A stretch of DNA of 64,000 nucleotides from positions 1-64,000 of the IMG/VR virus record IMGVR_UViG_3300044712_001218, one strand, 5' to 3'. Every line of letters begins with the position of its first letter. Within the stretch, counting starts at the first letter, position 1. The notes below the pieces were generated by a model, which was given only the letters and a program-made list of their open reading frames with translations, was not told the origin of the DNA and did not search any database. Origin of the DNA: a virus. Made by a program: the position numbers and the translations under genes. Shown one piece after another: positions 1 through 18,764 of the stretch.

Positions 1-491
1 TCCCCATCTTTCACCACTGCCCATTTCCCCCTCTGCCTTGCCGACAACCACAATTTTGCTGCAAAGGCGTCCGGCGGATAAAATTTCTTCACGGTTTCAT
101 GAATTACTTGCCCTTTATATATAAAGACCTGATCTTCCCAAATCCAAAACCCCGTTGCCTTTTTGTGGAGGCTTTCTACTACCCTACCATCTGCCACATC
201 TTTTCCATTCTCCCAAGCCTCCCTAAATTCCGGATACTTATTTTTCCATTCCTTTAACGTCTCCACATGAATTCCCATGACCCTTGCAATCTCCTTTTCC
301 GTATGCATTAACAAAGCCAACTGGTAAACCATTTGTACCATCCTCTTGGAATAAAACCCCCTATATTGAATGGAAAAAGTTTCCTCCTCAAATTCCTCCA
401 TTTGTTGTTCCGGAACATATTCTTGTTTATCTAACAGGAATTTTTCCTGCTCATTCCTGTCATTTTCCTTGTTTTTCTTATTCCTTGTCAT
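1..491 (-). CDS. terS: Terminase small subunit (HTH type), runs off the window edge
   Basis: Manually translated, not in the ORF track: MTRNKK...LALLMHTEKEIARVMGIHVETLKEWKNKYPEFREAWENGKDVADGRVVESLHKKATG...KKFYPPDAFAAKLWLSARQRGKW. This matches the typical HTH TerS pattern. Confidence 0.85.
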   Translation of the reverse strand, partial: MTRNKKNKENDRNEQEKFLLDKQEYVPEQQMEEFEEETFSIQYRGFYSKRMVQMVYQLALLMHTEKEIARVMGIHVETLKEWKNKYPEFREAWENGKDVADGRVVESLHKKATGFWIWEDQVFIYKGQVIHETVKKFYPPDAFAAKLWLSARQRGKWAVVKDG

Positions 492-1454
492 AACCTTATT
501 GTTTTCCTATGTATACCAATACTTTCCTTATAAAAATGAAAAATTTTGAAAAATAATTTTTATAAATTTTGACAAACCCTAATTTCATTGATAGTTGGGA
601 GTTTATCGTCCATATCTAAGGGCCTATATTTTATGACAAGTCCAAAAAATTGAAAAATTTGGAAAAAATTGTCATATATTTTGAGTCTCCCTCCAACGCC
701 CCCCTGCGTTCTCAACACGCGGATTGCGGGGCGGGGTGTGGATTCCAGGTCTCCCAGAGGCCTACGGCAGTGGGTCATCCACAGCAATGCCTTGTCAATT
801 GTCATGTCTAGAAGCCTTGGTATCAGTGATGTTGATGATGTAGATAGATGATCTGAAATGCTGCTGGATTGATTAGGAGGGTAGGATTCGCGGGTGCGCG
901 GGCTAAACTGATGACAAATAAGATATAAACATCCTCCTACCCTACTATATGCCCTACCTAATACATGACATATACATCCACATATCCCCCTTCCCTGATC
1001 TATACCCTTATCCATATATCCATATAATTTATTCCGGATATTCCTGTCTTTTTTTCCTGTTTCCTGATCCCTGCCATGGGTTAGGATTAATGACAGATAT
1101 AGATATAAATATGTTTTGGTCCTGTTTATTAGGGAATTTGTTTGCATGACAAGATTCATACATATATACATAAACATATATATAGAAGAGGACTTATGCA
1201 TCTTTATATTTGATGGGAGATTCATATGATGAAATAGCAATATGTATATATGTAATATTGTAGGAGCTCATCCAATATACATCTATATATAGATATATGA
1301 TAATTGTCCTGATAATGCGTAGTATATTATCTTTTTAGCCCAGATCAGGATGAAATAAAGGATAATCCTGATTTCCAGGTCTTTAATAATCTTATCTGGA
1401 ATCAATCTAAATTACCGGTCAAATCAAAAAAAGATGAATTTTTGTGATAAAAAA

Positions 1455-1486
1455 GTTGGCGGATAAATGGATTATTCCGATATTTG
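1455..1486 (+). promoter_or_regulatory. Candidate Bacteroidota-type early promoter
   Basis: GTTG-N20-GATATTTG versus consensus TTTG-N19-21-TAnnTTTG (2 mismatches); lies upstream of the first early unit. Confidence 0.4.
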
Positions 1487-1487
1487 A

Positions 1488-1860
1488 TAAGGATTTAATC
1501 ATAATCCTTTTCCCGCCGGATCGCATAAGCCGATCATTTGGTTCATTGACATCGTGGAAATTATCTGATTGTGGACAACAAACAGGATTATCATCCTTGG
1601 TATGGATGCCTATTAACGGACTACCTGGTCTTTTATGTCGGGCATTAAGAATCGTTGAAAACAGCCTTTTAGGCATTATCAGATAGCAGTCCCACTGTGG
1701 ATATTATAAGCTCCGCTTAGATTAATCCAGAAAAGATTAATTGTCTGACAGCCTTGTAGCTAAATATCCCGAAAATATTGGATTTCGCGAGCGGAGGATT
1801 ACGACCTTTTCGCCAAGACCGGATATAATTAGGACGCCAATACGAACTTTTATCATCCTT
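1488..1860 (+). ncRNA. Candidate structured non-coding/leader RNA
   Basis: No convincing ORF. Many stems: AAGGATT/AATCCTT, GATCG/CGATC, TATCTGAT/ATCAGATA, ATGCCTA/TAGGCAT, CTCCGCT/AGCGGAG, TTAATC/GATTAA. Confidence 0.4.
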
Positions 1861-1864
1861 TCAA

Positions 1865-1939
1865 GATTAGCTGATGAGGATTAATTATCCGAAATCAGGA
1901 TGTCCGTCTCAAATAAATAAAGACATCCTGATCCTAATC
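1865..1939 (+). ncRNA. Type I hammerhead ribozyme HH1
   Basis: GATTAG-CTGATGA-GGAT(TAATT)ATCC-GAAA-TCAGGATGTC(17 nt)GACATCCTGA-TC^CTAATC. Full catalytic core and three perfect stems; cleavage predicted after 1933. Confidence 0.93.
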
Positions 1940-1951
1940 AAATTAATAAAG

Positions 1952-2167
1952 ATGAAAAAATCCATTTATTTGCCAGAAGACCTGATTGATTTTTTAGATG
2001 GTCATAAGATGACTATTTCAATTATTCAGGATATTGAATATGTTGCTGATAAAATATCAAACTGGATTGATTATGGCGGGATTAAATATTCGGACAAAAA
2101 AGCCCTTAAATTAGCCCAAACTTATTATGAGCTTAAATTATTAGAAAAGGAATATTATGAATTATAG
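1952..2167 (+). CDS. Hypothetical early protein (71 aa)
   Basis: ATG at 1952 after an A-rich leader. The track's upstream start at 1874 lies inside HH1. Confidence 0.7.
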   Translation: MKKSIYLPEDLIDFLDGHKMTISIIQDIEYVADKISNWIDYGGIKYSDKKALKLAQTYYELKLLEKEYYEL

Positions 2168-2222
2168 GTTAACTGATGAGTCTTTAATAGACGAAACAGG
2201 ACAAAAGCGTCCTGTATTAACC
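2167..2222 (+). ncRNA. Type I hammerhead ribozyme HH2
   Basis: GGTTAA-CTGATGA-GTCT(TTAAT)AGAC-GAAA-CAGGAC(AAAAGC)GTCCTG-TA^TTAACC; cleavage predicted after 2216. Confidence 0.95.
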
Positions 2223-2239
2223 AATTAAAAACTAGTAAA

Positions 2240-2638
2240 ATGTCAAAAGTAGCAAAATCACCCGTACAGGATGTAGACGTCCTGAATTCAACCAGTGTTG
2301 AAAATGTAAAAACTTTAGCCCCGGAGTTAAGCCCTGTCGAAAAGGCTAATGCTCGTTATGAAGCTCAGCTGGCAAGGATTGAAAAGAGCAGGCAGGCTTT
2401 TATTGAGAAGGAAACCAAAAAAGCCGAGCGGGAAGCCAAGAAGGCTGAAAACCCAACTCCCTGGTCCTCTACCATGGACATTATGGTCAAATCACCGGAC
2501 ATTGAAATGTCAGCTGTTTTGGAGCAGCTCAAGGCAAAAGGCGTTGATGTTGAGGCCAGCAAATCCACCATTCACACCACCTTTGCCTATGTACGCAGGG
2601 TAGTCAAGGGTCTGCGTGAGAATGGTTTGATGGCCTAA
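2240..2638 (+). CDS. Hypothetical early protein: coiled coil plus possible winged-helix-like C-terminus
   Basis: 132-aa ORF with AAAACTAGTAAA leader, followed by a terminator. Confidence 0.75.
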   Translation: MSKVAKSPVQDVDVLNSTSVENVKTLAPELSPVEKANARYEAQLARIEKSRQAFIEKETKKAEREAKKAENPTPWSSTMDIMVKSPDIEMSAVLEQLKAKGVDVEASKSTIHTTFAYVRRVVKGLRENGLMA

Positions 2639-2670
2639 TTCCCTAAGATATAGGGCAGATGATCAAAGAC

Positions 2671-2698
2671 AGGCTCCCCTAACACGGGAGCCTTTTTT
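2671..2698 (+). terminator. Intrinsic terminator
   Basis: GGCTCCC-CTAACAC-GGGAGCC followed by TTTTTT. Confidence 0.85.
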
Positions 2699-2861
2699 AT
2701 GCCCTTATGTGATCTGTTCGTTTAATTTGATCAAAAACTAGGTTTCAACCCAGTTTAAGATTAGGCATTCTTTATTAAATGAATAGGCATTCCTTAGATC
2801 AATTATTAATCATCCTATCAATGGATGATTTAATTAAATTTAATTAATTTCTTTTAATTAT

Positions 2862-2892
2862 TTTGTTTTATCAAAATTGTTTTGTATATTAG
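2862..2892 (+). promoter_or_regulatory. Bacteroidota-type promoter
   Basis: TTTG-N19-TATATTAG, downstream of the terminator and upstream of ATG 2916. Confidence 0.55.
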
Positions 2893-2915
2893 ATGATAAT
2901 TTTAAATCTAATAAA

Positions 2916-3152
2916 ATGAAAACTATCACAATTCAAATCATCCATCAAATTATCTCTGATGCTTTTGACATTTGTAGATCAAACAAAGATTACAAATTCA
3001 AAAATTATCATGATGCTTATAATTTAGCAATCAAAAAAGCAGGATTTGAAAATGTTGATGATTATAAAACAAGAATGGAGCCTATTTATCATGCTCATTT
3101 AGAAAAAAGAGTAAAAATGTATTATTTAACAAATCATCCTTGCAAAAATTAA
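2916..3152 (+). CDS. Hypothetical protein
   Basis: ORF; internal ATG with A-rich leader chosen as start. Confidence 0.65.
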   Translation: MKTITIQIIHQIISDAFDICRSNKDYKFKNYHDAYNLAIKKAGFENVDDYKTRMEPIYHAHLEKRVKMYYLTNHPCKN

Positions 3153-3172
3153 AGATCAGGATGAAAGGATAT

Positions 3173-3206
3173 AAGGAGTAGGATGTCTTCTGCTCCTTTT
3201 CTATTT
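3173..3206 (+). terminator. Possible terminator/attenuator hairpin
   Basis: AAGGAGTAGGA-TGTC-TTCTGCTCCTT followed by TTCTATTT. Confidence 0.45.
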
Positions 3207-3285
3207 CCCACCCATTAAAGGTCACCCAGACGGTTGAATTTCCTCCGGGGGTGATCACTATTTTTATTTAACTAAACTTAGGCTT

Positions 3286-3477
3286 ATGAAAAAACAACTA
3301 ATTTCAGACATCAGCTCTTGGGTATGTTATGCCAATGCTTTTACCTTCATGGTATTTCTTTTGTTTAGCACTCCTACATTAAGCCCTTTAAACTATGCCA
3401 TGGTTGGAACCTTGGTATCATGTTTCTTTATGGCAGTATCCTGTCTTATCTTTGTTTTTGTTAATTGGAATGACTGA
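3286..3477 (+). CDS. Small membrane protein
   Basis: Two hydrophobic segments; AAACTTAG leader. Confidence 0.65.
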   Translation: MKKQLISDISSWVCYANAFTFMVFLLFSTPTLSPLNYAMVGTLVSCFFMAVSCLIFVFVNWND

Positions 3478-3928
3478 TTCAGTAGTTGATTCCGGAAAGA
3501 TTAGCAAGCATGAATTAGATTTCATGTTGGCTGGTCGAGCTATCTTTACCCTACGTAGTGTTGAGACACAAACCAGGTATACGTATAAGATTAAAAATGT
3601 AATGGGTAAAGATAAGATGTGGTTTGTTAGTGTATTAAGAGGTCAGGATAATACCACCGATTATCTGTATATTGGAACTTTGTTTCAGGAAATGGATGGG
3701 TCATTCCATTTTAAACTCACCGCTGCTAGTAAACTTAGAAGTGACGATAAACGGGTATTGGCTTTTACCTTTACCTTAAATAAGTTACTTAAGGGAACCC
3801 CTGATCCACGGGTAGAGATTTGGCATGAGGGAAGATGTGGAAGATGTGGAAGACTCCTTACTGTACCAGAAAGTATTGCTTCTGGTTTTGGTCCTGAATG
3901 TTTAACCCAAATTAAATTCAGATTCTAA
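3470..3928 (+). CDS. DUF6011-like zinc-finger protein
   Basis: C-terminal GRCGRCGRLLTVPESIASGFGPEC. Confidence 0.75.
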   Translation: MTDSVVDSGKISKHELDFMLAGRAIFTLRSVETQTRYTYKIKNVMGKDKMWFVSVLRGQDNTTDYLYIGTLFQEMDGSFHFKLTAASKLRSDDKRVLAFTFTLNKLLKGTPDPRVEIWHEGRCGRCGRLLTVPESIASGFGPECLTQIKFRF

Positions 3929-4062
3929 TGGATGCTAAAACCAGGAATTGCCTATTTGGTTTTACTGAGGATAATCCCAGTGATGAAGTAGAAGATCAGA
4001 AAGAACCTATCAACTATTGTCCCGGATGTAAAAACCATGATTGTGATAATTGTGATCTATGA
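3928..4062 (+). CDS. Small Cys-rich protein (44 aa)
   Basis: TAATG coupling to the upstream gene; CPGC...CDNC. Confidence 0.5.
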   Translation: MDAKTRNCLFGFTEDNPSDEVEDQKEPINYCPGCKNHDCDNCDL

Positions 4063-4143
4063 ATAAACAACCAGCTCGTACTCTTAGGGGTACGGGCTTG
4101 TGGTGGTGAAAAGCCTTAGTAATTTCATAAAAACCTAGAAATC

Positions 4144-4245
4144 ATGAATGAAATAACCATTGCTTTATTATGCATTGGAATATTATTATTCCTCTGCTGG
4201 ATGGGTCGTGAATTAACTTCCTATCACAATAACAAACGTTCTTAA
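4144..4245 (+). CDS. Small membrane peptide (33 aa)
   Basis: MNEITIALLCIGILLFLCWMG...; AAAACCTAG leader. Confidence 0.5.
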   Translation: MNEITIALLCIGILLFLCWMGRELTSYHNNKRS

Positions 4246-4271
4246 TTATTAACCAACAAAAACTTAGTCAA

Positions 4272-4541
4272 ATGTTACAAAAAGATCAAATTTTAGTAGC
4301 AACTGAAGCTCAATTCTTCAGCTGTGGAAGAACCAAGTTGTACATGGATGCTATTGTAAAAGCAGCCAATTATGAGGATACTCATTCTCAGACAATAATA
4401 GTCTTTCTTTCCAAGAAAAGGGAACAGAAAAATGATTATGTCAGAGTTGATACGGATCGTGGAAAACTCAGACCTGCCAAACCCGAAGAAATTGAAATGT
4501 GGGAGGCTGGAATCCGTAATTGTAGGGGGGAATTGATATGA
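4272..4541 (+). CDS. Hypothetical protein
   Basis: ORF with AAAAACTTAGTCAA leader. Confidence 0.7.
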   Translation: MLQKDQILVATEAQFFSCGRTKLYMDAIVKAANYEDTHSQTIIVFLSKKREQKNDYVRVDTDRGKLRPAKPEEIEMWEAGIRNCRGELI

Positions 4542-4849
4542 TCAGGATTATTATAGCTATAGCACTGGTTGGTTATTGCTTTCAACTCATAAGCAATCCA
4601 CGGGAGGAGATGATCCTTAGCTTCTATGGAAGATGGTTATTAAGGCTCCACGATTCTGGTAAGTTCGGGAGATATATATACAAACCCCTTGGAGGATGTA
4701 TTGTCTGTAATACCACATGGATTGGTTTTCTCTGTGGCTGGTTTATCTTTCATCAATCCTTCTTTGTTGGTCTTGTTACTGGTCTTGCTTCTGCCGGACT
4801 AGCAAATTTCATTCAAATTCTTCATACATTAATCAAGAAAAACCTATAA
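4538..4849 (+). CDS. Membrane protein with CxxC
   Basis: Hydrophobic helices; KPLGGCIVCNTTW; ATGA overlap. Confidence 0.65.
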   Translation: MIRIIIAIALVGYCFQLISNPREEMILSFYGRWLLRLHDSGKFGRYIYKPLGGCIVCNTTWIGFLCGWFIFHQSFFVGLVTGLASAGLANFIQILHTLIKKNL

Positions 4850-4852
4850 ATT

Positions 4853-5008
4853 ATGGAAAACCAGGAATTGTACAAAGTAAGCAGGGTATTTAAAAATAGT
4901 ACTCAACGGATATTGATCAGAAAGAACCTGACATTGGAACAAGCTCAGGCATTGGTCAAATCGTTTCCAACAAAACCATTATCTATGGTTGTTTATGATA
5001 AACAGTAA
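4853..5008 (+). CDS. Hypothetical protein (51 aa)
   Basis: MENQELYKVSRVF...LTLEQAQALVKSFP...; ends just before HH3. Confidence 0.6.
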   Translation: MENQELYKVSRVFKNSTQRILIRKNLTLEQAQALVKSFPTKPLSMVVYDKQ

Positions 5009-5009
5009 A

Positions 5010-5069
5010 GGTTAACTGATGAGGGTTTAATACCCGAAACAGACCTATTCATTTAGGTCTGTATTAACC
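5010..5069 (+). ncRNA. Type I hammerhead ribozyme HH3
   Basis: GGTTAA-CTGATGA-GGGT(TTAAT)ACCC-GAAA-CAGACCTA(TTCATT)TAGGTCTG-TA^TTAACC; cleavage predicted after 5063. Confidence 0.95.
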
Positions 5070-5084
5070 AAAAAACTTAGTAAA

Positions 5085-5288
5085 ATGAAAGATCAAAGCA
5101 TTCTTAATAATCCTTATATTGTCCCTCATCGTGGCTTGGGATTATTTACGGTGTTCCATTTATCTCAATATGGAACTTTTCTTTCAGGAACTAACAGTTT
5201 CCATTTAATGGAACATTTGAACTATGAATATTTGGCTTATGGGATGTATATTCATCAGCCAATAGTTTGCAAATTCAATATGAATTAA
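5085..5288 (+). CDS. Hypothetical protein
   Basis: ORF directly after HH3 with consensus leader. Confidence 0.6.
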   Translation: MKDQSILNNPYIVPHRGLGLFTVFHLSQYGTFLSGTNSFHLMEHLNYEYLAYGMYIHQPIVCKFNMN

Positions 5289-5290
5289 TT

Positions 5291-5719
5291 ATGAAACGAG
5301 TATTAATTTCAGCCATCCTCTTTCCGCTTACCCTTTGTGTTAGCCCTGCTATACACCGAGCGGATATTTCTGATCATATAACTACCCTTGTTAAGTATGA
5401 GAAATTTGTCAATGCTTTAACATGGGTTGAATCAAGACATGATTCATTAGCCGTGGGCTCTGCTCATGACTTAGGTTTATTCCAAATTACCCCTATTCGC
5501 TTATTGGATTATAATAGACGTACCGGTAAGCATTATACTGATCAGGATTTGTTTAACCCCCGTATTAGTCGTATTATCTTTGATTATTATTCAAAAGACC
5601 TCCCATTTGAGGAAGCAGCCCGTAAATGGAATAGGGCATATCAGTGGAGGGATTCTCTTGGAACGGTATATTGGAATAGAGTTTCTAAACAATTAAATAA
5701 ACTTAGTAATGAAAACTGA
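5291..5719 (+). CDS. Lysozyme-like / lytic transglycosylase-fold protein with N-terminal signal peptide
   Basis: VES catalytic Glu motif, GLFQI motif, WN motif; hydrophobic N-terminus. Confidence 0.7.
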   Translation: MKRVLISAILFPLTLCVSPAIHRADISDHITTLVKYEKFVNALTWVESRHDSLAVGSAHDLGLFQITPIRLLDYNRRTGKHYTDQDLFNPRISRIIFDYYSKDLPFEEAARKWNRAYQWRDSLGTVYWNRVSKQLNKLSNEN

Positions 5720-6233
5720 AATTGATCAATTTAGCCCGTGCCGGGAGGCATTGGAATTTCGCAGACAATACCCAACTTTTGAACAGGCATGGAAGGAATG
5801 TCCACGAGGAGATTGGATGTTATGGATTGCAAAAAGGTTAAAAATTGATAATAGAAAATTAACTCTTGCAAAAGGATTTTGTGCTAATACGGTTATTCAT
5901 TTAATGAAAGATCAAAAAAGTAAAGATGCAGTGAAAGCCGCTATTGATTATGGAAATAATCAGATAGATGAAGATCAGTTGAAAACTGCTGCTGATGCTG
6001 CTGCTGCTGCTTATGCTGCTGATGCTGCTGCTGCTATTGCTGCTTATGCTGCTGCTTATGCTGCTGCTGCTACTACTGCTGCTGATGCTGCTGCTGCTTA
6101 TGCTGCTGCTGCTGCTGCTGCTTATGCTGCTACTGCTAAAAAGCAAAATCAGATGATTACTGCTAACATATGCAGGAATATTCTTACGGAAGTGGTGATG
6201 GAAAAGATTAAAAGGTTAACTGATGAAGATTAA
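5709..6233 (+). CDS. Ala-rich repeat protein (Imm5-like phage family)
   Basis: CPRGDWMLW N-terminal motif followed by an AAAAY/AADAA tract. Confidence 0.7.
   Translation: MKTEIDQFSPCREALEFRRQYPTFEQAWKECPRGDWMLWIAKRLKIDNRKLTLAKGFCANTVIHLMKDQKSKDAVKAAIDYGNNQIDEDQLKTAADAAAAAYAADAAAAIAAYAAAYAAAATTAADAAAAYAAAAAAAYAATAKKQNQMITANICRNILTEVVMEKIKRLTDED
5988..6137 (+). repeat. Imperfect (GCT)n trinucleotide tract of about 50 codons
   Basis: GCT runs interrupted by GAT/TAT/ATT/ACT. Confidence 0.9.
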
Positions 6234-6271
6234 TTATCCGAAAGCCTTTCTAACAAGGAAGGTTATTAACC
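6214..6271 (+). ncRNA. Type I hammerhead ribozyme HH4 (variant; overlaps upstream CDS end)
   Basis: GGTTAA-CTGATGA-AGAT(TAATT)ATCC-GAAA-GCCTTTC(TAACAA)GGAAGGT-TA^TTAACC; A-C mismatch at the base of stem II. Confidence 0.85.
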
Positions 6272-6288
6272 AATTAAAAACTTAGTAT

Positions 6289-6672
6289 ATGAAAACTGAA
6301 GAAAAAGTAAACACCGAAGCATTGGAAACTAAAGCTATTAATCCCTTTGCTGTAGTCAGTCATTTTGTATCTGGCGAAAATGAAGATGATCGTATTATTC
6401 ATTCCGATCTTGGAATATCAGAAGAAAGAAACCATGAACTTTGCCAGAGAATGCAGGATTTTGTGGATAGAAGGAAAGTAGGTGATGAGATAAATATAAA
6501 CTGGCCTGAAGCCTTTCAGGAACTTACTTATGATGTTACTAATACCAATGAAGCAGTTTATATTGCTTTTTCCCTGACATATTCCATATTGGATGTACAA
6601 ATAGATACGTTAAAACGGATATTGCATAAACAGCAAATAATAATGACTATGCAAAACATTTTTGAGAAATAA
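6289..6672 (+). CDS. Hypothetical protein
   Basis: ORF after HH4 with consensus leader. Confidence 0.75.
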   Translation: MKTEEKVNTEALETKAINPFAVVSHFVSGENEDDRIIHSDLGISEERNHELCQRMQDFVDRRKVGDEININWPEAFQELTYDVTNTNEAVYIAFSLTYSILDVQIDTLKRILHKQQIIMTMQNIFEK

Positions 6673-6673
6673 T

Positions 6674-6855
6674 CGACGGTTCACAGTCCGTTTTAATTGT
6701 GGTGACAGTCCTGCCTGTGAAGGTCGGGCTGGAAACAAACCGATTGCTAAAAACTTAGTTAAAGACTTTCTCATGTGGAGAGCAACTTGTGGGTTTACTA
6801 AGTTTTCCCGACAATAACACATGGGCGGCCTGACCCCCTCCGTAATGGGGGTTTA
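6674..6855 (+). ncRNA. Candidate structured intergenic RNA
   Basis: Hairpins GACGG/CCGTT, CAGTCC..CCT-GTGA-AGG..GGGCTG, AAAACTTAGT/ACTAAGTTTT, ACCCCC/GGGGGT. Confidence 0.5.
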
Positions 6856-6913
6856 TTTTAAATTTGGAGTATTAAATGGAATTAATTATATTTAACCACT
6901 AAACTTAGTAATT

Positions 6914-7414
6914 ATGATACACTTTACTAAAATTACCATTGATTCGGCGTACGCTAAAAAGTGGAATGTCGATATGAATGATTTCATTGTTCTCACGAAT
7001 GATGAAGGCAATCCCATTCGTAATACCCTTTATCGTAAAGGAGGAATGGGAGGAACATGGAAAGATGGATATTGTGAGCTGATTAAATACATAGAAGAAG
7101 AGTATTCTGATAGCATCACAAAGATCGCTGCTGATAAGCCTCACTTAGCTGGTCATTGGTGTATCATCAATGAGAAGGGGGAGGAAAAGGTGGTGACTAA
7201 GCAGTTCGAATACATCTATCATCAGGGAGGCATAATCTACTCCATTAACAATACCTATTACAATATTGAGACAGGAGAGGTATATTGTAAAGGAAATCAT
7301 TCTATAAGCTCCTCTCAATTCATATTCGCCGATAATATTTATCACACTGATAAAGAAAAAATGGGAATATGGAAGATTAACAAGTTTGATGGAACCTATG
7401 AAATATTTAAATAA
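6914..7414 (+). CDS. Hypothetical protein
   Basis: 166-aa ORF with consensus leader. Confidence 0.75.
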   Translation: MIHFTKITIDSAYAKKWNVDMNDFIVLTNDEGNPIRNTLYRKGGMGGTWKDGYCELIKYIEEEYSDSITKIAADKPHLAGHWCIINEKGEEKVVTKQFEYIYHQGGIIYSINNTYYNIETGEVYCKGNHSISSSQFIFADNIYHTDKEKMGIWKINKFDGTYEIFK

Positions 7415-7417
7415 TAT

Positions 7418-7771
7418 ATGAAAGTACTGGCTAAAGCTCACCCTAATAAGAAGTATATCTACCATAACAACTTAGATAAACTATATCTGGAGGCGAGACT
7501 GGAAAATAATAAAGTCAGTTTTGTAGAAGTCTCTACTACCGTTCCTATTAAGGAACATCTATTAAAAGAAGAGACCGTCTTATCTTTATTCCCAGTGGAT
7601 GTGGAAGAAACCAGTAGACCCTTCTTAATTCAGGAAAACTTGGATTTCTATGCTATCTTACATAGAGATAAACCAAGGTATCAAAAAAGATTTATTGAAC
7701 TTAAAACCGGAAATAGTAATGGAACCTTATCCCGAACAAGTCCCTCGTTGGGCCGGCTTAGCCACCGATGA
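7418..7771 (+). CDS. Hypothetical protein
   Basis: ORF in operon. Confidence 0.6.
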   Translation: MKVLAKAHPNKKYIYHNNLDKLYLEARLENNKVSFVEVSTTVPIKEHLLKEETVLSLFPVDVEETSRPFLIQENLDFYAILHRDKPRYQKRFIELKTGNSNGTLSRTSPSLGRLSHR

Positions 7772-9362
7772 CGAAGGGAGTAAATCTATCAGGGTATTAT
7801 TTCCATTTAATGAGGAAGACTTAAGAAATGTTAAGAGTCTTCCTTCTAGAAGATGGGATGCCAAGAATAGATGTTGGTATGTTCCTTATTCCATTCAGAG
7901 TGCCCAAAGACTAAAGGAATGGGGTTTTAATATAGGGGCTGGTCTTCTTAAGAGAATTGAACAGTCCATGGAAGAATCTACCAAGATTGATATTACGAAA
8001 CTTGACAAGTTGAATATTCCTGGTTTAAAAGGGGAACTTAGACCATTCCAAAAGCAGGCAGTATTGTTTACCGAAATGAAAGAGGGTAGAATACTCAACG
8101 CGGATGAAATGGGAATGGGAAAAACGGTAGAGACTCTGGCATGGATTCAACTTCATAGGGATAGAATTCCGGTAGTCATTGTTTGTCCGGCTACTCTTAA
8201 GTGGAATTGGGAAAGGGAAACTATTAAGTGGTTACCAGATCCAAAGGTTCAGGTATTAGAGGGAACTAAACCCTACCGTATTACCGGAAGGATTATCATA
8301 TTGAATTATGATATTCTTCCTAACTGGGTTCAAACGTTAAAAGCCTTACATCCTCAGATTCTTATTACAGATGAAAGCCATTACTTTAAATCCAATAAGG
8401 CTAAAAGAACCAAGGCTATTAAACAATTAGGGAAGAATATACCCCATGTCCTTGCTTTATCCGGCACCCCGATCGTTAACCGGCCGGTGGAAGCTTTTAA
8501 TGCCATTCATCTGGTTAATCATAATATTGTTCCTACCTATTGGGAATTTGCCCAAAGGTATTGTGCCCCCAAACATAATGGGTATGGTTGGGATTTCAGT
8601 GGAGCAAGCAATACAGATGAGTTACATGAATTACTTATCAATAGCATTATGATTAGAAGGCTTAAGAAGGATTATTTAAAGGAGCTGCCTGACAAAGTAC
8701 ATTCCTTTATCCCTATTGAGTTAGATAATCAGGGAGAATATAACCTTGCTGAATCTGACTTTATTTCCTTTGTAAGGAATAGTAAAGGGAGAGAAGCAGC
8801 TGAACGGGCATCCAATGCTCAGGCATTTGCAGAAATTGAAGGATTAAAACAGATTGCCGTCAAAGGAAAAATCAGTCAGGCTGTCACATGGGTGGAAGAT
8901 TTCTTTACTTCTGACTCAGGTAAGCTGGTTGTTTATGCCAGACATAAATTTGTTATAGATGCGTTAATGACTGTCTTTAATGAGATTGCTGTTAAAATAG
9001 ACGGGTCTATTGCCGTTAATAAAAGACAGAATGTTATTGATCAATTCCAGAATAATCCTGATGTAAAATTAATTGTGATCAGTGATGCCGGAGGAGTTGG
9101 TATTACTCTTACTGCTGCTTCTACCATTGCTATACTTGAATTGCCATGGACTCCGGGGCAACTTGATCAGATTATTGACCGGCTTCATCGTATTGGACAA
9201 AAGGATACAGTAAACATCTATTATCTTCTTGCTCGTGATACCATTGAGGAAAAGATTGCTTATCTGCTTGATAAAAAAAGAAAAGTGATCAGCAGTGTAC
9301 TTGATGGAGAAGATGTGGAAATGGAATCATTACTTATGGAACTTATGAATGAATATAATTAA
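7719..9362 (+). CDS. SNF2/HARP-like SF2 helicase (start uncertain, 7650 or 7719)
   Basis: LRPFQ, ADEMGMGKT, DESH, LSGTP, GVGITLT, QIIDRLHRIGQ; N-terminal HARP-like domain. Confidence 0.92.
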   Translation: MEPYPEQVPRWAGLATDDEGSKSIRVLFPFNEEDLRNVKSLPSRRWDAKNRCWYVPYSIQSAQRLKEWGFNIGAGLLKRIEQSMEESTKIDITKLDKLNIPGLKGELRPFQKQAVLFTEMKEGRILNADEMGMGKTVETLAWIQLHRDRIPVVIVCPATLKWNWERETIKWLPDPKVQVLEGTKPYRITGRIIILNYDILPNWVQTLKALHPQILITDESHYFKSNKAKRTKAIKQLGKNIPHVLALSGTPIVNRPVEAFNAIHLVNHNIVPTYWEFAQRYCAPKHNGYGWDFSGASNTDELHELLINSIMIRRLKKDYLKELPDKVHSFIPIELDNQGEYNLAESDFISFVRNSKGREAAERASNAQAFAEIEGLKQIAVKGKISQAVTWVEDFFTSDSGKLVVYARHKFVIDALMTVFNEIAVKIDGSIAVNKRQNVIDQFQNNPDVKLIVISDAGGVGITLTAASTIAILELPWTPGQLDQIIDRLHRIGQKDTVNIYYLLARDTIEEKIAYLLDKKRKVISSVLDGEDVEMESLLMELMNEYN

Positions 9363-9374
9363 AAACTTAGTAAA

Positions 9375-9665
9375 ATGAAAACTGTAAAATTCAAAAAATG
9401 GATTTGTACCATTCATATTCATCATTATCTGAATGGTCGTCCAGCAATCCAATTAAGAAGTGCTGACAAACTCGATCCGGGTCCGGTATTAACTGCTACT
9501 GTCAATCTTCCTGAAATCCCTATCGAAACAGATGAGGTAATTATTAAGGATTATTCTGAAAATGAAGGAATATTGGAAGTTCTTATTGAGGCCGGTATTA
9601 TAAGTGAACCAAACTGGACTATAAAAAGTGATCATGTAACCTTTCCTGTTTGTAGACTGCTATGA
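9375..9665 (+). CDS. Hypothetical protein (DUF4313-like)
   Basis: Y..GR.AI.L, TVNL, IKDYSENEG pattern. Confidence 0.6.
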   Translation: MKTVKFKKWICTIHIHHYLNGRPAIQLRSADKLDPGPVLTATVNLPEIPIETDEVIIKDYSENEGILEVLIEAGIISEPNWTIKSDHVTFPVCRLL

Positions 9666-9957
9666 AAATATACTTCACCAAACATGCCTTAACCAAAGGT
9701 ATTATCACTCAGGAATGTAATGAGAGGGATTGGAAAATTAAAGGAAATTGTTTAACCCAATACCATTCCTCTCTCTCTATAATGTGAATCCTATTACTAA
9801 ATCCAAAGTAAGGATACCTCTACAATATTGGTATCGTCCTGATTGGCATTTAGATAAACAGGAAGCAATAGCTCAAGCAGAATATATGCGTGGTAAAGCC
9901 ATACAAGCTATTCAAAGGAGATTAGATCGGTTAAATAATCTTAAATTTATATTATAA
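9662..9957 (+). pseudogene. Frameshifted small phage protein
   Basis: N-terminal MKIYFTKHALTKGI and C-terminal WH...EAIAQAEYMR...L are in different frames, with (CT)5 at 9769-9778 in the overlap. Confidence 0.55.
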
Positions 9958-10133
9958 TGAAAGAGGAAATATGTGATTTGATTGCTGGTTATAAAAGAAA
10001 AATCAGGATCAAACAAAAACAGATAGAATATAATGAGAAGTTAGGAAAAGGAGGAGTATGTATTTCAATTAATGGCGAAATACAAATGCTAAATGCTGTT
10101 ATTTCTGATCTACAAAAGATTGCTTATAAATGA
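9957..10133 (+). CDS. Hypothetical protein (58 aa)
   Basis: TAATG and ATGA coupling on both sides. Confidence 0.55.
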   Translation: MKEEICDLIAGYKRKIRIKQKQIEYNEKLGKGGVCISINGEIQMLNAVISDLQKIAYK

Positions 10134-11062
10134 ATATAATTGAATTATATAGAGATTTTAATGTACCTCATGCTACAGAAGGTCACAAACATTGCAGACC
10201 GGGATGGGTAAATGTAGAGTGCCCTTTTTGTACAGGAAACCCCGGTCTACATTTGGGTTATAACTTAGCATCCGGTGGATTCGTTTGTTGGAGATGTGGT
10301 TGGCATCCGCCAATCCTTACTATCAGTAAACTTATTCATATATCAGAACCGGAGGCAAAAGCCCTTATAAAATTATACGGTGGTATTGTTTCTTCTGCCA
10401 AATTTACCCCTATTACTAAAATTAAGGGCAAAGATCACCAATTACCTAGCAATACAAGCCCTTTACAATCAAATCACCGGCATTATTTAGAAGGACGTGG
10501 ATTTGATCCTGATAAATTGATTAAAGAGTGGAATTTGCTTGGAACCGGCCCCATTTCTCTTCTATCTACTGGAAAAGGAAAAGATAAAAAAGAAATTAAT
10601 TTTAAACATAGGATTATTGCCCCTATTATTTGGGATGGAATAGAGGTATCCTTTCAGGGAAGAGATATTACTGATAAGGCTAGTTTAAAATATATTACCT
10701 GTCCCAAAGATCGGGAACTAATATTTCATAAACATATTTTATATGGAAAACAAGAATATTGGAAGGAATCTGTTATACTCGTTGAAGGGATCACTGACGT
10801 ATGGAGATTTGGAAGATATAGTATGGCTTGTTTTGGTATTAAATTCACTCCAGTTCAGGTACGAGAAATCGCTAAAAGATTTAGAACCGTGGCAGTCTGC
10901 TTTGATGGTGGCGAATTACAGGCTATTAGTCAATCTAATAAAATCGTTGCAGAATTACGCTTCCGGGGAGTCGATGCCTTCAGAGTGGATATAGAAGGTG
11001 ATCCCGGAGAAATGAAACAAGAAGAAGCTGATTATTTAGTTAACCAATTAATAAAAACTTAG
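10130..11062 (+). CDS. DNA primase (Zn finger plus TOPRIM)
   Basis: CPFC...CWRCG, YLEGRG, RIIAPI, FQGR, VEGITD, CFDG. Confidence 0.88.
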   Translation: MNIIELYRDFNVPHATEGHKHCRPGWVNVECPFCTGNPGLHLGYNLASGGFVCWRCGWHPPILTISKLIHISEPEAKALIKLYGGIVSSAKFTPITKIKGKDHQLPSNTSPLQSNHRHYLEGRGFDPDKLIKEWNLLGTGPISLLSTGKGKDKKEINFKHRIIAPIIWDGIEVSFQGRDITDKASLKYITCPKDRELIFHKHILYGKQEYWKESVILVEGITDVWRFGRYSMACFGIKFTPVQVREIAKRFRTVAVCFDGGELQAISQSNKIVAELRFRGVDAFRVDIEGDPGEMKQEEADYLVNQLIKT

Positions 11063-11067
11063 AAATC

Positions 11068-11745
11068 ATGAGAACAAAAAAGTTTATGTCTACCTTTTAT
11101 AAAGTAGACGAAATAAAAAGAGAGGATAATAAAATTACACTTTCTTTAAATCAATATGATCGAATGGATGATGAATCTGAAGAAAGAGGATCACCAAACT
11201 ATAAATGGGATTATAAGATAGAATTAGAAATAACAAATCATTGTTTTCGGCTACAAAAAATTCATCCATTTCATACTATGAATACAGCTGATGCTAATTT
11301 TACTATACGGATAGATACCATAAATAATCAGTTATATATTGATTTTGAATAAACAATTAATATTATGACAAGAGAACAAGAACTTAAATTGAAGGAGGAA
11401 CTGACTAAAAAGTTTGATCCTTTATCCATTCAGGTAGCAACCAACGCTATTGTACGGTATGAAGTAGAAATTTCTTATTTAGAAACCACTTGGAAAAAAG
11501 GATTGGTTTTCCTTAATGAACTGAATAAATTAGGATATAGAATAACTAAAAAATAACTAAAAATGAAAACAATAGTAGTACAATGGAGAAAAACATTACC
11601 TGATGATCTTTATGATCAAGAAATGAGGGTAATGGCTAGTGGGCATCCTCGTTTTGTACCGGGATCAAGATTTGATTTCGGGTTCTTCCAAATAGCTACA
11701 AATGAAGGGTACACTATAATCTCATTACCTTATGAAAACAATTAA
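11068..11745 (+). CDS. Three small hypothetical ORFs (11068-11352, 11365-11556, 11563-11745)
   Basis: Tightly packed co-oriented ORFs. Confidence 0.6.
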
Positions 11746-12271
11746 CTTAGCATGGGGGCTTCATGACTTTATGAAGCTTCCCGGCGATTCCAAGTACGGG
11801 GTGGATAAATGGAAGTGTAGAAAATGTGGAGTGATCGGTCTACGAGTTGGATTTTCTCAATTCATTGACGTGGATCAAACAGTATCTGATCAAATTGTTC
11901 ATAATTGTAATTTACAAACAGAAATGAATAAATTAAATGCTACACATATCATTATCTACCTTGATAGAAGCCACCCTGATCTGGAAATAAAATCAGTACA
12001 TCCCTTAATTACTCCTCCTCCGGGGAAACAACATTGGAATGGAGGAGTGTGGATTGCCCACCCAGTAGATAAACATCCAATACTAATTCCTTATGGGGAA
12101 TTCATGATTTATTGGAAAGACCCTACTCATACTATGGTCAGGGCTAAGAAATCTGAACCTACTATGACCAGATTAAAAAGAAATCCTCCTCCAGCCCCTA
12201 AAATGACAAGGGGAAAGAAGGAAGAGATTAAACCAGTAATGACCAGAAATAAACAAAAACCATTATTATGA
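11732..12271 (+). CDS. Hypothetical Zn-ribbon protein with four C-terminal MxRxK repeats
   Basis: CRKCG; MVRAKK, MTRLKR, MTRGKK, MTRNKQ. Confidence 0.7.
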   Translation: MKTINLAWGLHDFMKLPGDSKYGVDKWKCRKCGVIGLRVGFSQFIDVDQTVSDQIVHNCNLQTEMNKLNATHIIIYLDRSHPDLEIKSVHPLITPPPGKQHWNGGVWIAHPVDKHPILIPYGEFMIYWKDPTHTMVRAKKSEPTMTRLKRNPPPAPKMTRGKKEEIKPVMTRNKQKPLL

Positions 12272-12380
12272 CTCCTGATCCTATCTTTTATCTCATCTAC
12301 CGTATTATATGGTGGGCTATTAGTATAGCAGTGATATTCCTTGTATATCTTATTTTCTATCCACCAGATAAAAAAGAAGA

Positions 12381-12794
12381 ATGATTAGATATTGCCTCAC
12401 TCCCGGATGTCATAATAGGGCAATACCAAAAAGGAAGTATTGTCACACCTGTCATCACAGAAAATGGAAAGAGAAATATCCCATCAAGTATGCTTTTCAG
12501 ACTCATAAAGACAATGCTCGTAGGAGAGGGAAGGAATATTCTCTCACCTACGAGCAATTTTGTGCCTTTGTAATAAGGGTCGATTATATGACCAAGAAAG
12601 GAATACATAGAGACTCTTATCATATTGATAGGGTAATAGAAGAAGAAGGGTATCATGAATGGAATCTACAGATATTACCGAATGCTGCTAATGTCAGGAA
12701 GTATTTACATTATCGCTGGGATGAAGAAACCAGGAAAATGGTATATGATGTAAAATTAGTCAAACAAATAGAAGATGATAATAATCCATTTTAA
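12381..12794 (+). CDS. HNH-like endonuclease
   Basis: N-terminal Cys cluster; HIDR...GYHEWNLQIL...N. Confidence 0.65.
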   Translation: MIRYCLTPGCHNRAIPKRKYCHTCHHRKWKEKYPIKYAFQTHKDNARRRGKEYSLTYEQFCAFVIRVDYMTKKGIHRDSYHIDRVIEEEGYHEWNLQILPNAANVRKYLHYRWDEETRKMVYDVKLVKQIEDDNNPF

Positions 12795-12806
12795 AACAAT
12801 TAATGT

Positions 12807-13318
12807 ATGAAACAATTAACAAGTAAACAAGCAATAGCTTTCCATGACAGTAAAGTATGGGAAAGTTGGACGGATGAACAAATAGCAGGCTTTCAATTAT
12901 TTCAAAAATACCTAGCTGTGCCTTTTGATAGATTTCATCAAGCTATGGAAAAAGTATTAGGAAGACTAATTTTTACTCATGAATTTGGGTCTGCCGGAAA
13001 TCTTGAAAAGGAATTTTTAGGATTGAAAAAAGCTCCCACTTTTGAAGAAATATTAAACCTAATTCCTAAAGATAAACAAATAATAATTGGCATATGAATA
13101 ATTCCACGGAAATGACTCGTTCCACTTCTCCAAGGTACAAACACATAAGTGCTAGGAAAGCTGCTATCAGAAGTGCTATGGCAGTAAATAATGTTTTAAC
13201 AGAATATTATCTTTTCACTAAATCGGACGAAGAGGTCCTATGTTTCGTCCATCCTGCGTATCGACAGGAAATAGGAGATAAACTGGGCATTTCCACCATT
13301 AAAAGGCATGGGTGGTAA
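12807..13318 (+). CDS. Two hypothetical proteins (12807-13097, 13094-13318)
   Basis: ORF track; ATGA coupling. Confidence 0.65.
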
Positions 13319-13383
13319 ATTGATCAGGAATGCCTTATATTCCTTATAAAATTGATATGTTTTTAAATTCATATCAAGGAAAA

Positions 13384-13415
13384 TTTGGAGGTATTAATGG
13401 TGATATTTATCTTTG
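13384..13415 (+). promoter_or_regulatory. Bacteroidota consensus promoter
   Basis: Exact TTTG-N20-TATCTTTG in the intergenic region upstream of the initiator gene. Confidence 0.65.
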
Positions 13416-13588
13416 ATCTGTTATTAAAAAATAGTGCGAGTCATGGAAAAGATACTAAGATATTCATCGTTAATGCCTCCAACAAGGCATTCAATTACCC
13501 ACAAAAGGATCATGACTCGCAATCAAACCTTAGTGGGTTTTTGTTTGTCTCTTGGGGGCATTTTTTCATTTCATAATTTAATTTCATT

Positions 13589-14320
13589 ATGGAAAGATTA
13601 AAAGCTCCTTCTCATATCAGATATGCCTTGGAATTATTTTCCTCAGATGCTTATCTCACCATTAACAAGAAACTCCTTCAACATTATGGTCCTAATATAG
13701 CAGTATTCCTATCTAATTTGGTGGATAAATATAAATACTTTAAGGAAAAAGGATTATTGGAAGATGACCGATTTTTCCAAACTCATAAACAACAAATGGA
13801 ATGGACTGGTTTAACCATCGAAAAACTTAGATCATGTAAGGTACTTTTAATAAAGGATGGGGTACTTGATTCTCTTATGAAAGGCTTGCCTCCTAAGGAA
13901 TGGTTCTATATTGATTTTGACAAATTAATGACAATTATATATCCCACGAATATTCGTCGGAAAACACGACGATTGATCATCGGAAAACACGACGAATATA
14001 AGGATAATAAATTTAAGGATAATAAAAATTATATAAAAAGTTTTGACAAAAAGACAATTCCTCCAACAATAGATATGGTCAAGGAGTATTGTAAGGAAAG
14101 AAGAAACAAAATCAATCCAGAAACCTTTATAGATTTCTACACCATGAAAGACTGGATGGTTGGTAAGACTAGAATGAAGGATTGGCAGGCAGCAGTCAGG
14201 ACATGGGAAAAGAACCACCAGAATGGAAATAATAGACCAAAGTATGCTTCTTCTGATGAAGACGATTATGATGATAAACCCTTACCTGACCACATAAAGA
14301 AATTATACGATAAAAGATGA
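13589..14320 (+). CDS. Phage replication initiator-like protein
   Basis: N-terminal HTH-type domain; C-terminal PPT..V..YC.ER...F.DFY...W.VGK..MKDWQAAVRTWE; directly upstream of the helicase. Confidence 0.75.
   Translation: MERLKAPSHIRYALELFSSDAYLTINKKLLQHYGPNIAVFLSNLVDKYKYFKEKGLLEDDRFFQTHKQQMEWTGLTIEKLRSCKVLLIKDGVLDSLMKGLPPKEWFYIDFDKLMTIIYPTNIRRKTRRLIIGKHDEYKDNKFKDNKNYIKSFDKKTIPPTIDMVKEYCKERRNKINPETFIDFYTMKDWMVGKTRMKDWQAAVRTWEKNHQNGNNRPKYASSDEDDYDDKPLPDHIKKLYDKR
13957..14026 (+). repeat. Iteron-like direct repeats (candidate origin)
   Basis: TCGGAAAACACGACGA at 13957 and 13980; TAAGGATAATAAA at 13999 and 14014. Confidence 0.6.
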
Positions 14321-15852: not shown

Positions 15853-15875
15853 AAATTAATTTAATAAATAAAATT

Positions 15876-17280: not shown

Positions 17281-17297
17281 TCTAAATATCTAAATAT

Positions 17298-18746: not shown

Positions 18747-18764
18747 AAATTATTTGTATATTTA
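18732..18764 (+). promoter_or_regulatory. Candidate promoter
   Basis: CTTG-N21-TATATTTA upstream of 18810. Confidence 0.45.

What the first reader, a model, noticed from the sequence alone, without database searches (positions are those of the whole stretch)
1865..6271. Four hammerhead ribozymes positioned to cut the early transcripts just ahead of start codons
Seen: four type I hammerheads (1865-1939, 2167-2222, 5010-5069, 6214-6271), each with CUGAUGA/GAAA/UH cores. Stems II and III differ in sequence but keep their pairing. All are on the coding strand at gene junctions, and predicted cuts fall 18, 23, 21 and 23 nt upstream of ATGs 1952, 2240, 5085 and 6289. In HH2-HH4 the 3' strand of stem I (UUAACC) is also the start of the phage's translation leader. 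Established: hammerheads occur in bacterial and phage contexts, mostly without known function; cleavage leaves 5'-OH and 2',3'-cyclic phosphate ends. Inference: a protein-independent system that splits early mRNA into short-leader messages, functionally analogous to RNase III processing of T7 early RNA, which could tune stability or translation.
Basis: partly seen in the sequence, partly recalled or inferred. Interest (0 to 1): 0.92.

Follow-up and report, generated by a model that had tools for sequence, protein, structure and literature searches.

The report
Hammerhead ribozymes before phage early genes
Four genuine-looking self-cutting hammerhead RNAs sit just in front of small early genes of an uncultured phage; they belong to a widespread phage subfamily, and the idea that such ribozymes chop long phage messages into single-gene pieces was already published in 2011.

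Summary
The predicted cuts lie 18, 23, 21 and 23 nt before the ATGs. No Rfam hammerhead model reaches its curated threshold.

Comparative evidence is strong. 112 IMG/VR contigs carry the same stem I. Over 150 aligned copies, stems II and III covary heavily. In 120 of 150 the cut lies 15-26 nt before an ORF start, against 213 of 3000 random positions. Arrays reach 8 copies per locus.

- HH1 lies in the 5' leader of the first gene, not at a gene junction.
- HH4 has an A.C mismatch next to the core, and its hammerhead fold is not the minimum-energy fold.
- The leader motif also precedes genes that have no hammerhead.
- A borderline twister-P3 candidate at 6669-6747 was missed.

Processing of phage polycistronic RNA by clustered hammerheads was proposed, with in vitro cleavage shown, by Perreault et al. 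2011. This scan has noted many similar arrays on other DNA. Cleavage is untested here, and no RNA run was listed. Verdict: a new member of a known kind, of moderate interest.

The parts
1865..1939 (+). HH1, a type I hammerhead. Stem I is GAUUAG/CUAAUC, stem II GGAU/AUCC, stem III 11 bp. The cut falls after C1933. It lies in the 5' leader of the first + strand gene (ATG 1952).
   Evidence: Own descriptor. Model R1: 39.7 bits, E 2e-8. Minimum-energy fold equals the hammerhead fold, z -3.17.
2167..2222 (+). HH2, a type I hammerhead. Stem I is GGUUAA/UUAACC. The cut falls after A2216. The upstream ORF's stop codon TAG (2165-2167) overlaps the first base of the element, and ATG 2240 follows 23 nt after the cut.
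   Evidence: z -3.97. Weak Rfam hits only: 16.9 and 22.6 bits.
5010..5069 (+). HH3, a type I hammerhead. Stem I is GGUUAA/UUAACC. The cut falls after A5063. The upstream stop TAA lies at 5006-5008, and ATG 5085 follows 21 nt after the cut.
   Evidence: z -4.14.
6214..6271 (+). HH4, a type I hammerhead with an A.C mismatch at pair 10.1/11.1. The cut falls after A6265. The upstream ORF 5709-6233 ends at a TAA inside loop II, and ATG 6289 follows 23 nt after the cut. This is the weakest of the four.
   Evidence: R1: 41.5 bits. Hammerhead fold -11.5 against a minimum of -13.5 kcal/mol. The same position is non-standard in 18 of 148 relatives; by eye, several rows printed show A.C there.
2217..2239 (+). 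Leader left on the downstream RNA after the HH2 cut (UUAACC + A-rich stretch). The equivalent leaders are 1934-1951, 5064-5084 and 6266-6288.
   Evidence: Direct reading. Family leaders are 61% A, and 3 of 122 carry a Shine-Dalgarno-like 4-mer.
6669..6747 (+). Candidate twister ribozyme (type P3) directly after the stop codon of ORF 6289-6672. By the model alignment the cut falls between G6732 and A6733. The call is borderline.
   Evidence: Rfam RF03154: 40.3 bits against a gathering score of 39.9, E 4.6e-5. No relatives found by pattern. The minimum-energy fold does not reproduce the model fold.
6794..6806 (+). A 13-nt exact complement of the early leader AAAACUUAGUAAA (copies at 5072-5084 and 9362-9374). 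It lies between the twister candidate and the terminator.
   Evidence: First noted by another first-reader note, e1-6212774.
6832..6860 (+). Intrinsic-terminator-like hairpin plus a T run that ends the unit holding HH3, HH4 and the twister candidate. A similar one at 2671-2700 ends the unit holding HH1 and HH2.

Best explanation
The four elements are cis-acting type I hammerhead ribozymes transcribed as part of the phage's + strand early operons. They lie in two units, about 1840-2700 and about 3250-6860, each ending at a terminator-like hairpin.

The proposed steps are as follows.
- Once its 3' strand has been transcribed, each element folds and cuts itself after H17.
- Because the topology is type I, the whole ribozyme stays on the 3' end of the upstream RNA as a compact fold ending in a 2',3'-cyclic phosphate.
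- The downstream RNA starts with a 5'-OH and only UUAACC (CUAAUC for HH1) plus an A-rich, Shine-Dalgarno-less stretch, 18-23 nt before the AUG.
- HH1 trims the primary transcript's 5' leader. HH2-4 separate a gene or gene block from what lies upstream.
- The upstream reading frame remains intact, because its stop codon lies before or inside the ribozyme.

The likely effect is to uncouple the stability and translation of the downstream gene from upstream RNA and to standardise its leader.

Shown here: the motif, the covariation, and the conserved placement. Inferred: cleavage in vivo and its consequence.
For: - The core and three helices are complete in all four, and chance is excluded.
- The minimum-energy fold equals the hammerhead fold for HH1-3.
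- The exact stem I pattern occurs in 112 IMG/VR contigs, giving 119 instances and 96 distinct sequences.
- Model R1 gave 159 hits over 92 sources. On the best 150, 98.9% of cells are paired and 15 of 17 pairs show changes on both sides. 0 of 500 shuffles and none of the slid controls came near these values.
- The cut-to-ATG distance is 15-26 nt in 120 of 150 copies (115 of them in 18-24), against 213 of 3000 random same-strand positions.
- The upstream ORF's stop lies inside the ribozyme in 61 of 96 copies and within 25 nt before it in 27 of 96.
- All hits within a locus lie on one strand. Arrays reach 8 copies, with a median spacing of 515 nt and a median downstream ORF of 73 aa.
- Perreault et al. 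2011 showed in vitro cleavage of three clustered prophage hammerhead arrangements and in vivo cleavage for one of them. They also noted a mapped transcript 5' end within 3 nt of a halovirus hammerhead cut, 13 nt before a start codon (PMC3088659, passages).
Against: - There are no RNA data of any kind for this phage.
- No hammerhead here, and 0 of 61 R1 hits in 13 related loci, reaches an Rfam gathering score.
- Stem I is only 6 A/U-rich base pairs. In sequence context, the predicted stem I pair probabilities are 0.17-0.68.
- I found no loop II-flank pseudoknot above a cross-pairing control. The tertiary contact needed for fast cutting at low Mg2+ is therefore unidentified.
- HH4 has a mismatch next to the core and a competing fold.
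- Ribosomes terminating on stop codons inside the ribozyme would transiently unfold it.
- Only 4 of about 20 early genes have a hammerhead, and the same leader works without one.
- The narrow cut-to-ATG distance could simply reflect tight gene packing (ribozyme, then a minimal initiation region) rather than selection for leader length.
Confidence: 0.65

Rival explanations
1. Cleavage is conditional rather than constitutive. The upstream ORF's stop codon lies in or at the 5' strand of the ribozyme, so ribosome traffic on the upstream gene (or Mg2+, or a factor) decides whether the ribozyme folds. The element would then be a switch that couples downstream mRNA fate to upstream translation.
For: Upstream stops lie inside the ribozyme in 61 of 96 family members, and in HH2 and HH4 of the window. 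Stem I is weak. Perreault et al. raise regulated cleavage for phage hammerheads (discussion passage).
Against: Nothing here measures regulation. In 27 of 96 copies the stop lies before the ribozyme, and 8 of 96 (like HH1) have no upstream ORF at all, yet these keep the same design.
Confidence: 0.15
2. The elements are mainly gene-cassette punctuation. Their invariant ends (A-GGUUAAC..., ...UAUUAACC-AA) act as short homologies for shuffling small early genes between phages, or as three-frame stop and insulator modules, and RNA cleavage is secondary.
For: - Stem I is sequence-invariant in 133 of 150 rows, and in 35 of 51 rows that were not selected for it.
- Downstream genes are diverse and tiny, and the window's have no, or only one distant, relative.
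- The ribozyme supplies stop codons in three frames.
Against: The catalytic core is intact in all 150 rows apart from the free position N7. Stems II and III are maintained by compensatory change. That pattern is selection on a folded, catalytic RNA, which punctuation alone would not need.
Confidence: 0.1
3. Shared stem I lets the 5'-OH end of a released fragment pair with the next ribozyme at that fragment's own 3' end. Fragments could then be ligated into circles or spliced, by hammerhead reversal or by an RtcB-type ligase.
For: HH2, HH3 and HH4 share one stem I, and GGTTAACC is a palindrome. Type I topology leaves the ribozyme body with a cyclic phosphate.
Against: - In the 9-copy array of L100 the copies carry different stem I sequences, each paired within its own copy, so neighbouring copies are not compatible.
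- HH1's 3' strand mismatches HH2's 5' strand at the pair next to the core.
- Perreault et al. looked for spliced or circular products and found none.
Confidence: 0.04
4. The matches are chance motif hits or decayed, inactive relics.
For: Rfam thresholds are not reached. HH4 is imperfect. L007 holds a core-less look-alike at 8608-8662.
Against: Shuffles gave 0.15 loose hits per window against 4 strong ones observed. There is massive covariation and conserved placement.
Confidence: 0.02

Closest known systems
Clustered hammerhead ribozymes flanking single genes or short gene blocks in prophages (Perreault et al. 2011, PLoS Comput Biol, PMC3088659; passages read)
   Same: Several cis hammerheads lie on the coding strand of one phage operon, with variable small genes between them. 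[quoted passage not shown] Cleavage was shown there in vitro for three arrangements and in vivo for one.
   Different: Here all copies are type I, with a near-invariant 6-bp stem I (GGUUAA/UUAACC), a 5-nt loop II (mostly UNAAU) and a cut 18-24 nt before the ATG. They lie in an apparently lytic phage's early region. The subfamily is rare in cellular genomes (5 contigs) and is not caught by Rfam thresholds. I could not see that paper's alignments (supplements closed), so I cannot say whether this subfamily is already in its data set.
HHphage of haloviruses HF1/HF2 (described in Perreault et al. 2011)
   Same: A hammerhead sits at the head of an early polycistronic transcript, 13 nt before the first start codon. 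The mapped 5' end lies within 3 nt of the cut. This matches the position of HH1 here.
   Different: It is an archaeal virus, its core carries a two-base insertion, and it depends on high salt.
[quoted passage not shown]
   Same: A type I hammerhead fills a short intergenic UTR with the cut a few nt (7) before the next ORF's start codon. A link to translation initiation is proposed.
   Different: These are eukaryotic RNA viruses, encoded in RNA, with a different translation machinery. The paper says that its type I hammerheads seem to lack the usual loop-loop contacts.
RNase III processing of phage T7 early mRNA
   Same: It splits an early polycistronic RNA between genes.
   Different: It depends on a host protein, leaves 5'-phosphate and 3'-OH ends, and leaves a hairpin on both products. 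It is a functional analogy only.
Twister ribozyme, type P3 (Rfam RF03154)
   Same: Window 6669-6747 matches the full model (positions 1-73) just above the gathering score. It lies in the same operon as hammerheads, an association that the 2019 review (PMC6765202) also mentions for mRNA processing.
   Different: The score is borderline. Several positions that are conserved in the model differ. No relatives were found. 13 related hammerhead loci hold no twister.

Membership tests
Hammerhead ribozyme (type I) | Catalytic core C3 U4 G5 A6 N7 G8 A9 / G12 A13 A14 / A15.1-U16.1 / H17 (the criteria quoted from Perreault et al. 2011) | tested here: met
   All four carry CUGAUGA, GAAA and U-H (C, A, A, A) in register. 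The 150 relatives have CUGA-N-GA throughout.
Hammerhead ribozyme (type I) | Three helices around the core, supported by covariation; stem I open, stems II and III closed by loops | tested here: met
   98.9% of cells are paired and 15 of 17 pairs show double changes. 0 of 500 shuffles reach this, and the slid controls give 20-45% paired. Caveat: the alignment was fitted to the model.
Hammerhead ribozyme (type I) | No mispair directly next to the core (10.1-11.1, 1.1-2.1, 15.1-16.1) | tested here: inconclusive
   Met in HH1-3. HH4 has A.C at 10.1/11.1. 18 of 148 relatives also lack a standard pair there. Perreault et al. report activity with a U.U mismatch there; A.C was not addressed in the passages read.
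Hammerhead ribozyme (type I) | Score at or above the Rfam gathering threshold of a hammerhead family | tested here: not met
   Best scores are Hammerhead_1 at 16.9 against 34 and RAGATH-1-hammerhead at 22.6 against 56.3, for HH2 only. 0 of 61 related copies pass. I read this as a gap in the models, given the covariation, but the test failed as stated.
Hammerhead ribozyme (type I) | Tertiary contact between stem I and loop II for fast cleavage at physiological Mg2+ | tested here: inconclusive
   No Watson-Crick loop II-flank pairing above the cross-pair control. The invariant stem I, the UNAAU loop II and the conserved A at -1 and AA at +1,+2 would fit a non-canonical contact, but that is inference.
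Hammerhead ribozyme (type I) | Self-cleavage giving 5'-OH and 2',3'-cyclic phosphate ends | not testable with these tools
   No RNA run was listed. This needs a bench assay.
Twister ribozyme type P3 (RF03154) | Full-length match at or above the gathering score | tested here: met
   40.3 against 39.9 bits, model positions 1-73 of 73. The margin is only 0.4 bits.
Twister ribozyme type P3 (RF03154) | Conserved loop nucleotides and pseudoknots, with support from relatives | tested here: inconclusive
   Several positions conserved in the model differ in the alignment. Two of them (UGA in the internal loop, UCA in the hairpin loop) would compensate each other if those segments pair, which I recall as a twister pseudoknot but did not verify. 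No relatives were found.

The most novel reading that the evidence does not exclude
The early region is a ribozyme-run expression programme in a host that hardly uses Shine-Dalgarno sites.

- Type I hammerheads with a frozen stem I manufacture standard 5'-OH, A-rich leaders for chosen early genes.
- At the end of the operon, a twister ribozyme and a terminator would release an RNA of about 125 nt (6733 to about 6860). This RNA carries a perfect 13-nt antisense to that leader, right up to the AUG.
- This RNA could shut early translation off as it accumulates.

The invariance of stem I, loop II and the flanking A residues would then mark a specific tertiary fold or a protein or ribosome recognition site, not just a helix.
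Probability: 0.1. Interest if true: 0.8.

Novelty: new member of a known kind. Interest (0 to 1): 0.4.

Why it matters
What genomically encoded hammerheads do in bacteria and phages is still called an open question (2019 review PMC6765202).

This window adds no new principle, but the family behind it is a clean natural data set. It holds at least 150 copies with one fixed stem I, a fixed 18-24 nt distance to the start codon, upstream stop codons embedded in the ribozyme, and leaders without Shine-Dalgarno sites.

That regularity makes the processing hypothesis directly testable with reporters, for example active against dead core, or altered spacing. It also shows that current Rfam thresholds miss a common phage hammerhead subfamily.

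Tried and rejected
- Rfam at gathering thresholds and at E <= 10 on 1-12000. No hammerhead passes. The other weak hits (isrG, miRNAs, snoRNAs) fall on the GCT repeat or are noise.
- megablast of 1-20000 against GenBank phages: no match.
- Relatives through the SNF2 helicase. 27 loci were found, at most 55% identical. Only L007 holds a clear hammerhead (7974-8068, at the head of its early block) plus a core-less look-alike at 8608-8662. Positional orthology of HH2-4 therefore could not be tested.
- Relatives of the hammerhead-adjacent proteins. ORF 2240-2638 gave one distant locus and ORF 6289-6672 gave none.
- PHROGs and Pfam on the early proteins: no informative function.
- RNA evidence: no RNA holder was listed by the look-up of sequencing runs.
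- Loop II-flank pseudoknot: not above the control.
- Neighbour-compatibility or circularisation reading of the shared stem I: not supported by the L100 array.
- Trans-cleavage of the hammerhead-less TTAACC leaders (a lead from note e1-6200246). All four ribozymes have closed stem III hairpins. By eye, the bases 5' of the U-H at 4272 and 43424(-) do not complement any stem III 5' strand. Rejected; no separate computation was run.
- Fold of the post-twister stretch 6733-6866: not more stable than shuffles, z -0.71.
- Twister relatives by pattern: none.
- Sigma-70-type promoter scan: no more hits than in shuffles, so transcription starts are unknown.
- Host. The hints towards Bacteroidota are 3 of 4 named MAG contigs and leaders poor in Shine-Dalgarno sites. 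Against this, several late genes of this phage carry strong AGGAGG sites. The host is left open.
- Literature searches found no paper on this stem I subfamily or on a fixed cut-to-ATG distance in phages. Subscription journals are largely unsearched, and the closed supplements of PMC3088659 could not be seen and may hold these sequences.

Full report
**What is there**

The window is the first 64 kb of a 73,401-bp IMG/VR virus record that CheckV rates as complete. Its + strand block, from about 1.8 to 42 kb, begins with small genes of unknown function. It then encodes an SNF2 helicase, a primase-like protein, a uracil-DNA-glycosylase-family protein with an intein, and a family A DNA polymerase. 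Calling the first few kilobases 'early' is a reasonable inference.

With one mismatch allowed in stem II it also finds HH4 (6214-6271). The loosened descriptor found nothing else in the window. In 200 dinucleotide shuffles it found 30 hits in all, never more than 2 per shuffle. A still looser scan of the whole genome added nothing convincing.

The cuts (after C1933, A2216, A5063 and A6265) lie 18, 23, 21 and 23 nt before ATGs 1952, 2240, 5085 and 6289. For HH1-3 the minimum-energy fold is the hammerhead fold, with z -3.2 to -4.1. HH4 has an A.C mismatch at the pair next to the core. Its hammerhead fold (-11.5 kcal/mol) loses to an alternative fold (-13.5).

At gathering thresholds no hammerhead is reported. 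At E <= 10 only HH2 appears, far below threshold. The same holds for relatives: 0 of 61 copies in 13 loci pass. I take this as a limit of the models, for the reasons in the next section.

**Comparative evidence**

A pattern copied from HH2/HH3 (stem I, core and GAAA) matches 112 IMG/VR contigs. That gives 119 instances and 96 distinct sequences.

A covariance model built from HH2 and HH3 finds all four window copies and L007. Over 92 sources it gives 159 hits. On the best 150:
- 98.9% of cells are paired.
- 15 of 17 pairs show changes on both sides.
- No shuffle or slid control comes near these values.

The alignment was fitted to the model, which favours the structure, but the size of the effect in stems II and III is far beyond that bias.

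Placement is conserved:
- The cut-to-ATG distance is 15-26 nt in 120 of 150 copies (115 of them in 18-24), against 213 of 3000 random same-strand positions.
- In the pattern-selected set, 77 of 96 lie in 18-24.
- The upstream ORF's stop codon lies inside the ribozyme in 61 of 96. The positions used are the TAA of GGTTAAC, the TGA of CTGATGA, a stop overlapping the first G, and a stop in loop II.
- The stop lies within 25 nt before the ribozyme in 27 of 96. 8 of 96 have no upstream ORF, as with HH1.
- Copies in a locus always share one strand. Arrays reach 8 copies per locus, median spacing is 515 nt, and the median downstream ORF is 73 aa.

**Features of the subfamily**

- Stem I is GGUUAA/UUAACC in 133 of 150 rows, and in 35 of 51 rows that were not selected for it.
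- The base before stem I is A in 91% of copies. The two bases after it are A in 91% and 86%.
- Loop II is mostly a 5-nt UNAAU.
- Stems II and III, by contrast, vary freely.

I found no Watson-Crick pairing between loop II and the flanks above a cross-pairing control. The reason for the invariance is therefore open. A non-canonical tertiary contact, the embedded stop codons and the leader function are all candidates.

The idea that a shared stem I lets neighbouring copies pair, allowing circularisation, is not supported. In L100 the copies carry different stem I sequences, each paired within itself.

Leaders after the ribozyme are 61% A, and 3 of 122 have a Shine-Dalgarno-like 4-mer. Other ORFs in these loci also rarely have one (43 of 668). 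The pattern occurs in only 5 contigs of 185,579 species genomes, 3 of them Bacteroidota MAGs. That hints at hosts poor in Shine-Dalgarno sites, but this phage's late genes do carry strong AGGAGG sites. I leave the host open.

- HH1 follows the divergent region and has no credible upstream gene. It would trim a primary transcript's leader, not split two genes.
- Terminator-like hairpins at 2671-2700, 3173-3206 and 6832-6860 suggest that HH1 and HH2 lie in one short unit and HH3 and HH4 in another.
- The leader motif is real but independent of the ribozymes. Versions of TTAACC...AAAACTTAGTAAA-ATG precede ATGs 4272, 6914, 11068, 32494 and 43424(-) without a ribozyme body.
- Only 4 of about 20 early genes have a hammerhead.
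It scores 0.4 bits above the Rfam threshold. It has no relatives that I could find, and several positions conserved in the model differ, so I call it a candidate only.

**Mechanism**

The best-supported reading is constitutive cis cleavage during or soon after transcription.

Type I topology leaves the whole ribozyme, with a cyclic phosphate, on the upstream RNA. It leaves only six bases plus an A-rich leader, with a 5'-OH, on the downstream RNA. The upstream ORF keeps its stop codon.

This would uncouple the downstream gene from upstream RNA and give it a standard short leader.

The tight distance may reflect selection on leader length or merely dense packing. The data cannot separate the two.

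**What is known**

- Perreault et al. 2011 (PMC3088659; passages) reported multiple hammerheads flanking single genes or short blocks in prophages. [quoted passage not shown] They also described a halovirus hammerhead 13 nt before a start codon.
- The 2019 review PMC6765202 (passages) repeats the hypothesis and calls the function unresolved.
- A 2026 paper (PMC13725137; abstract and passages) reports type I hammerheads a few bases before ORFs in RNA viruses.
- My four literature searches found nothing on this particular stem I subfamily.
- This scan itself holds 564 notes with the words hammerhead, ribozyme, phage, start and codon, including arrays of 9-30 copies on other DNA.

**Verdict**

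This is a new member of a known kind. The regular subfamily design and the possible twister plus anti-leader RNA are the parts worth a bench test.

Noticed in passing
window 6669-6747: Candidate twister-P3 ribozyme (Rfam RF03154, 40.3 against 39.9 bits), directly after the stop codon of ORF 6289-6672 and about 85 nt before a terminator.
   Followed up: partly
window 6794-6806: Exact 13-nt complement of the early-gene leader AAAACTTAGTAAA (copies at 5072-5084 and 9362-9374, near-copies before seven other early ATGs). It lies between the twister candidate and the terminator, and could be an antisense regulator released by the twister cut. The local fold is not unusually stable (z -0.71).
   Followed up: partly
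window 4240-4271, 6885-6913, 11040-11067, 32465-32493, 43425-43455 (- strand): Leaders that keep TTAACC (or TTTAACC / GTTAACC) plus the A-rich motif before an ATG but have no hammerhead body upstream. They may be lost ribozymes or a leader that predates them.
   Followed up: partly
L100 2808-6441; L139 5576-10953; L043 6226-11139: Other uncultured phages carry arrays of 7-9 hammerheads of this subfamily on one strand, about one per small gene. In L100 the stem I sequence differs from copy to copy.
   Followed up: partly
L035 4067-4135 and similar copies (L044, L061, L067, L089, L114, L117, L121, L126): A sub-group whose stem III ends in a GC-rich hairpin followed by a run of U (it looks like an intrinsic terminator inside the ribozyme). 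In this group the next ATG is about 44-45 nt from the cut instead of 18-24.
   Followed up: no
L007 8608-8662: A hammerhead look-alike that keeps stem I, stem II, GAAA, stem III and UA but lacks the CUGAUGA strand. It is probably a decayed copy.
   Followed up: no
window 5965-6139: A GCT-rich repeat inside ORF 5709-6233 encodes an alanine-rich stretch. It causes spurious Rfam hits (isrG, several miRNA families).
   Followed up: no
window 26187-28511: A uracil-DNA-glycosylase-family gene interrupted by an intein with a LAGLIDADG endonuclease domain (Pfam).
   Followed up: no
window, late genes on the - strand (for example ATGs at 54883, 55388, 57106): Late structural genes carry strong AAAGGAGG ribosome-binding sites, whereas early genes use A-rich leaders without them. 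This is a marked early/late difference in initiation signals.
   Followed up: no
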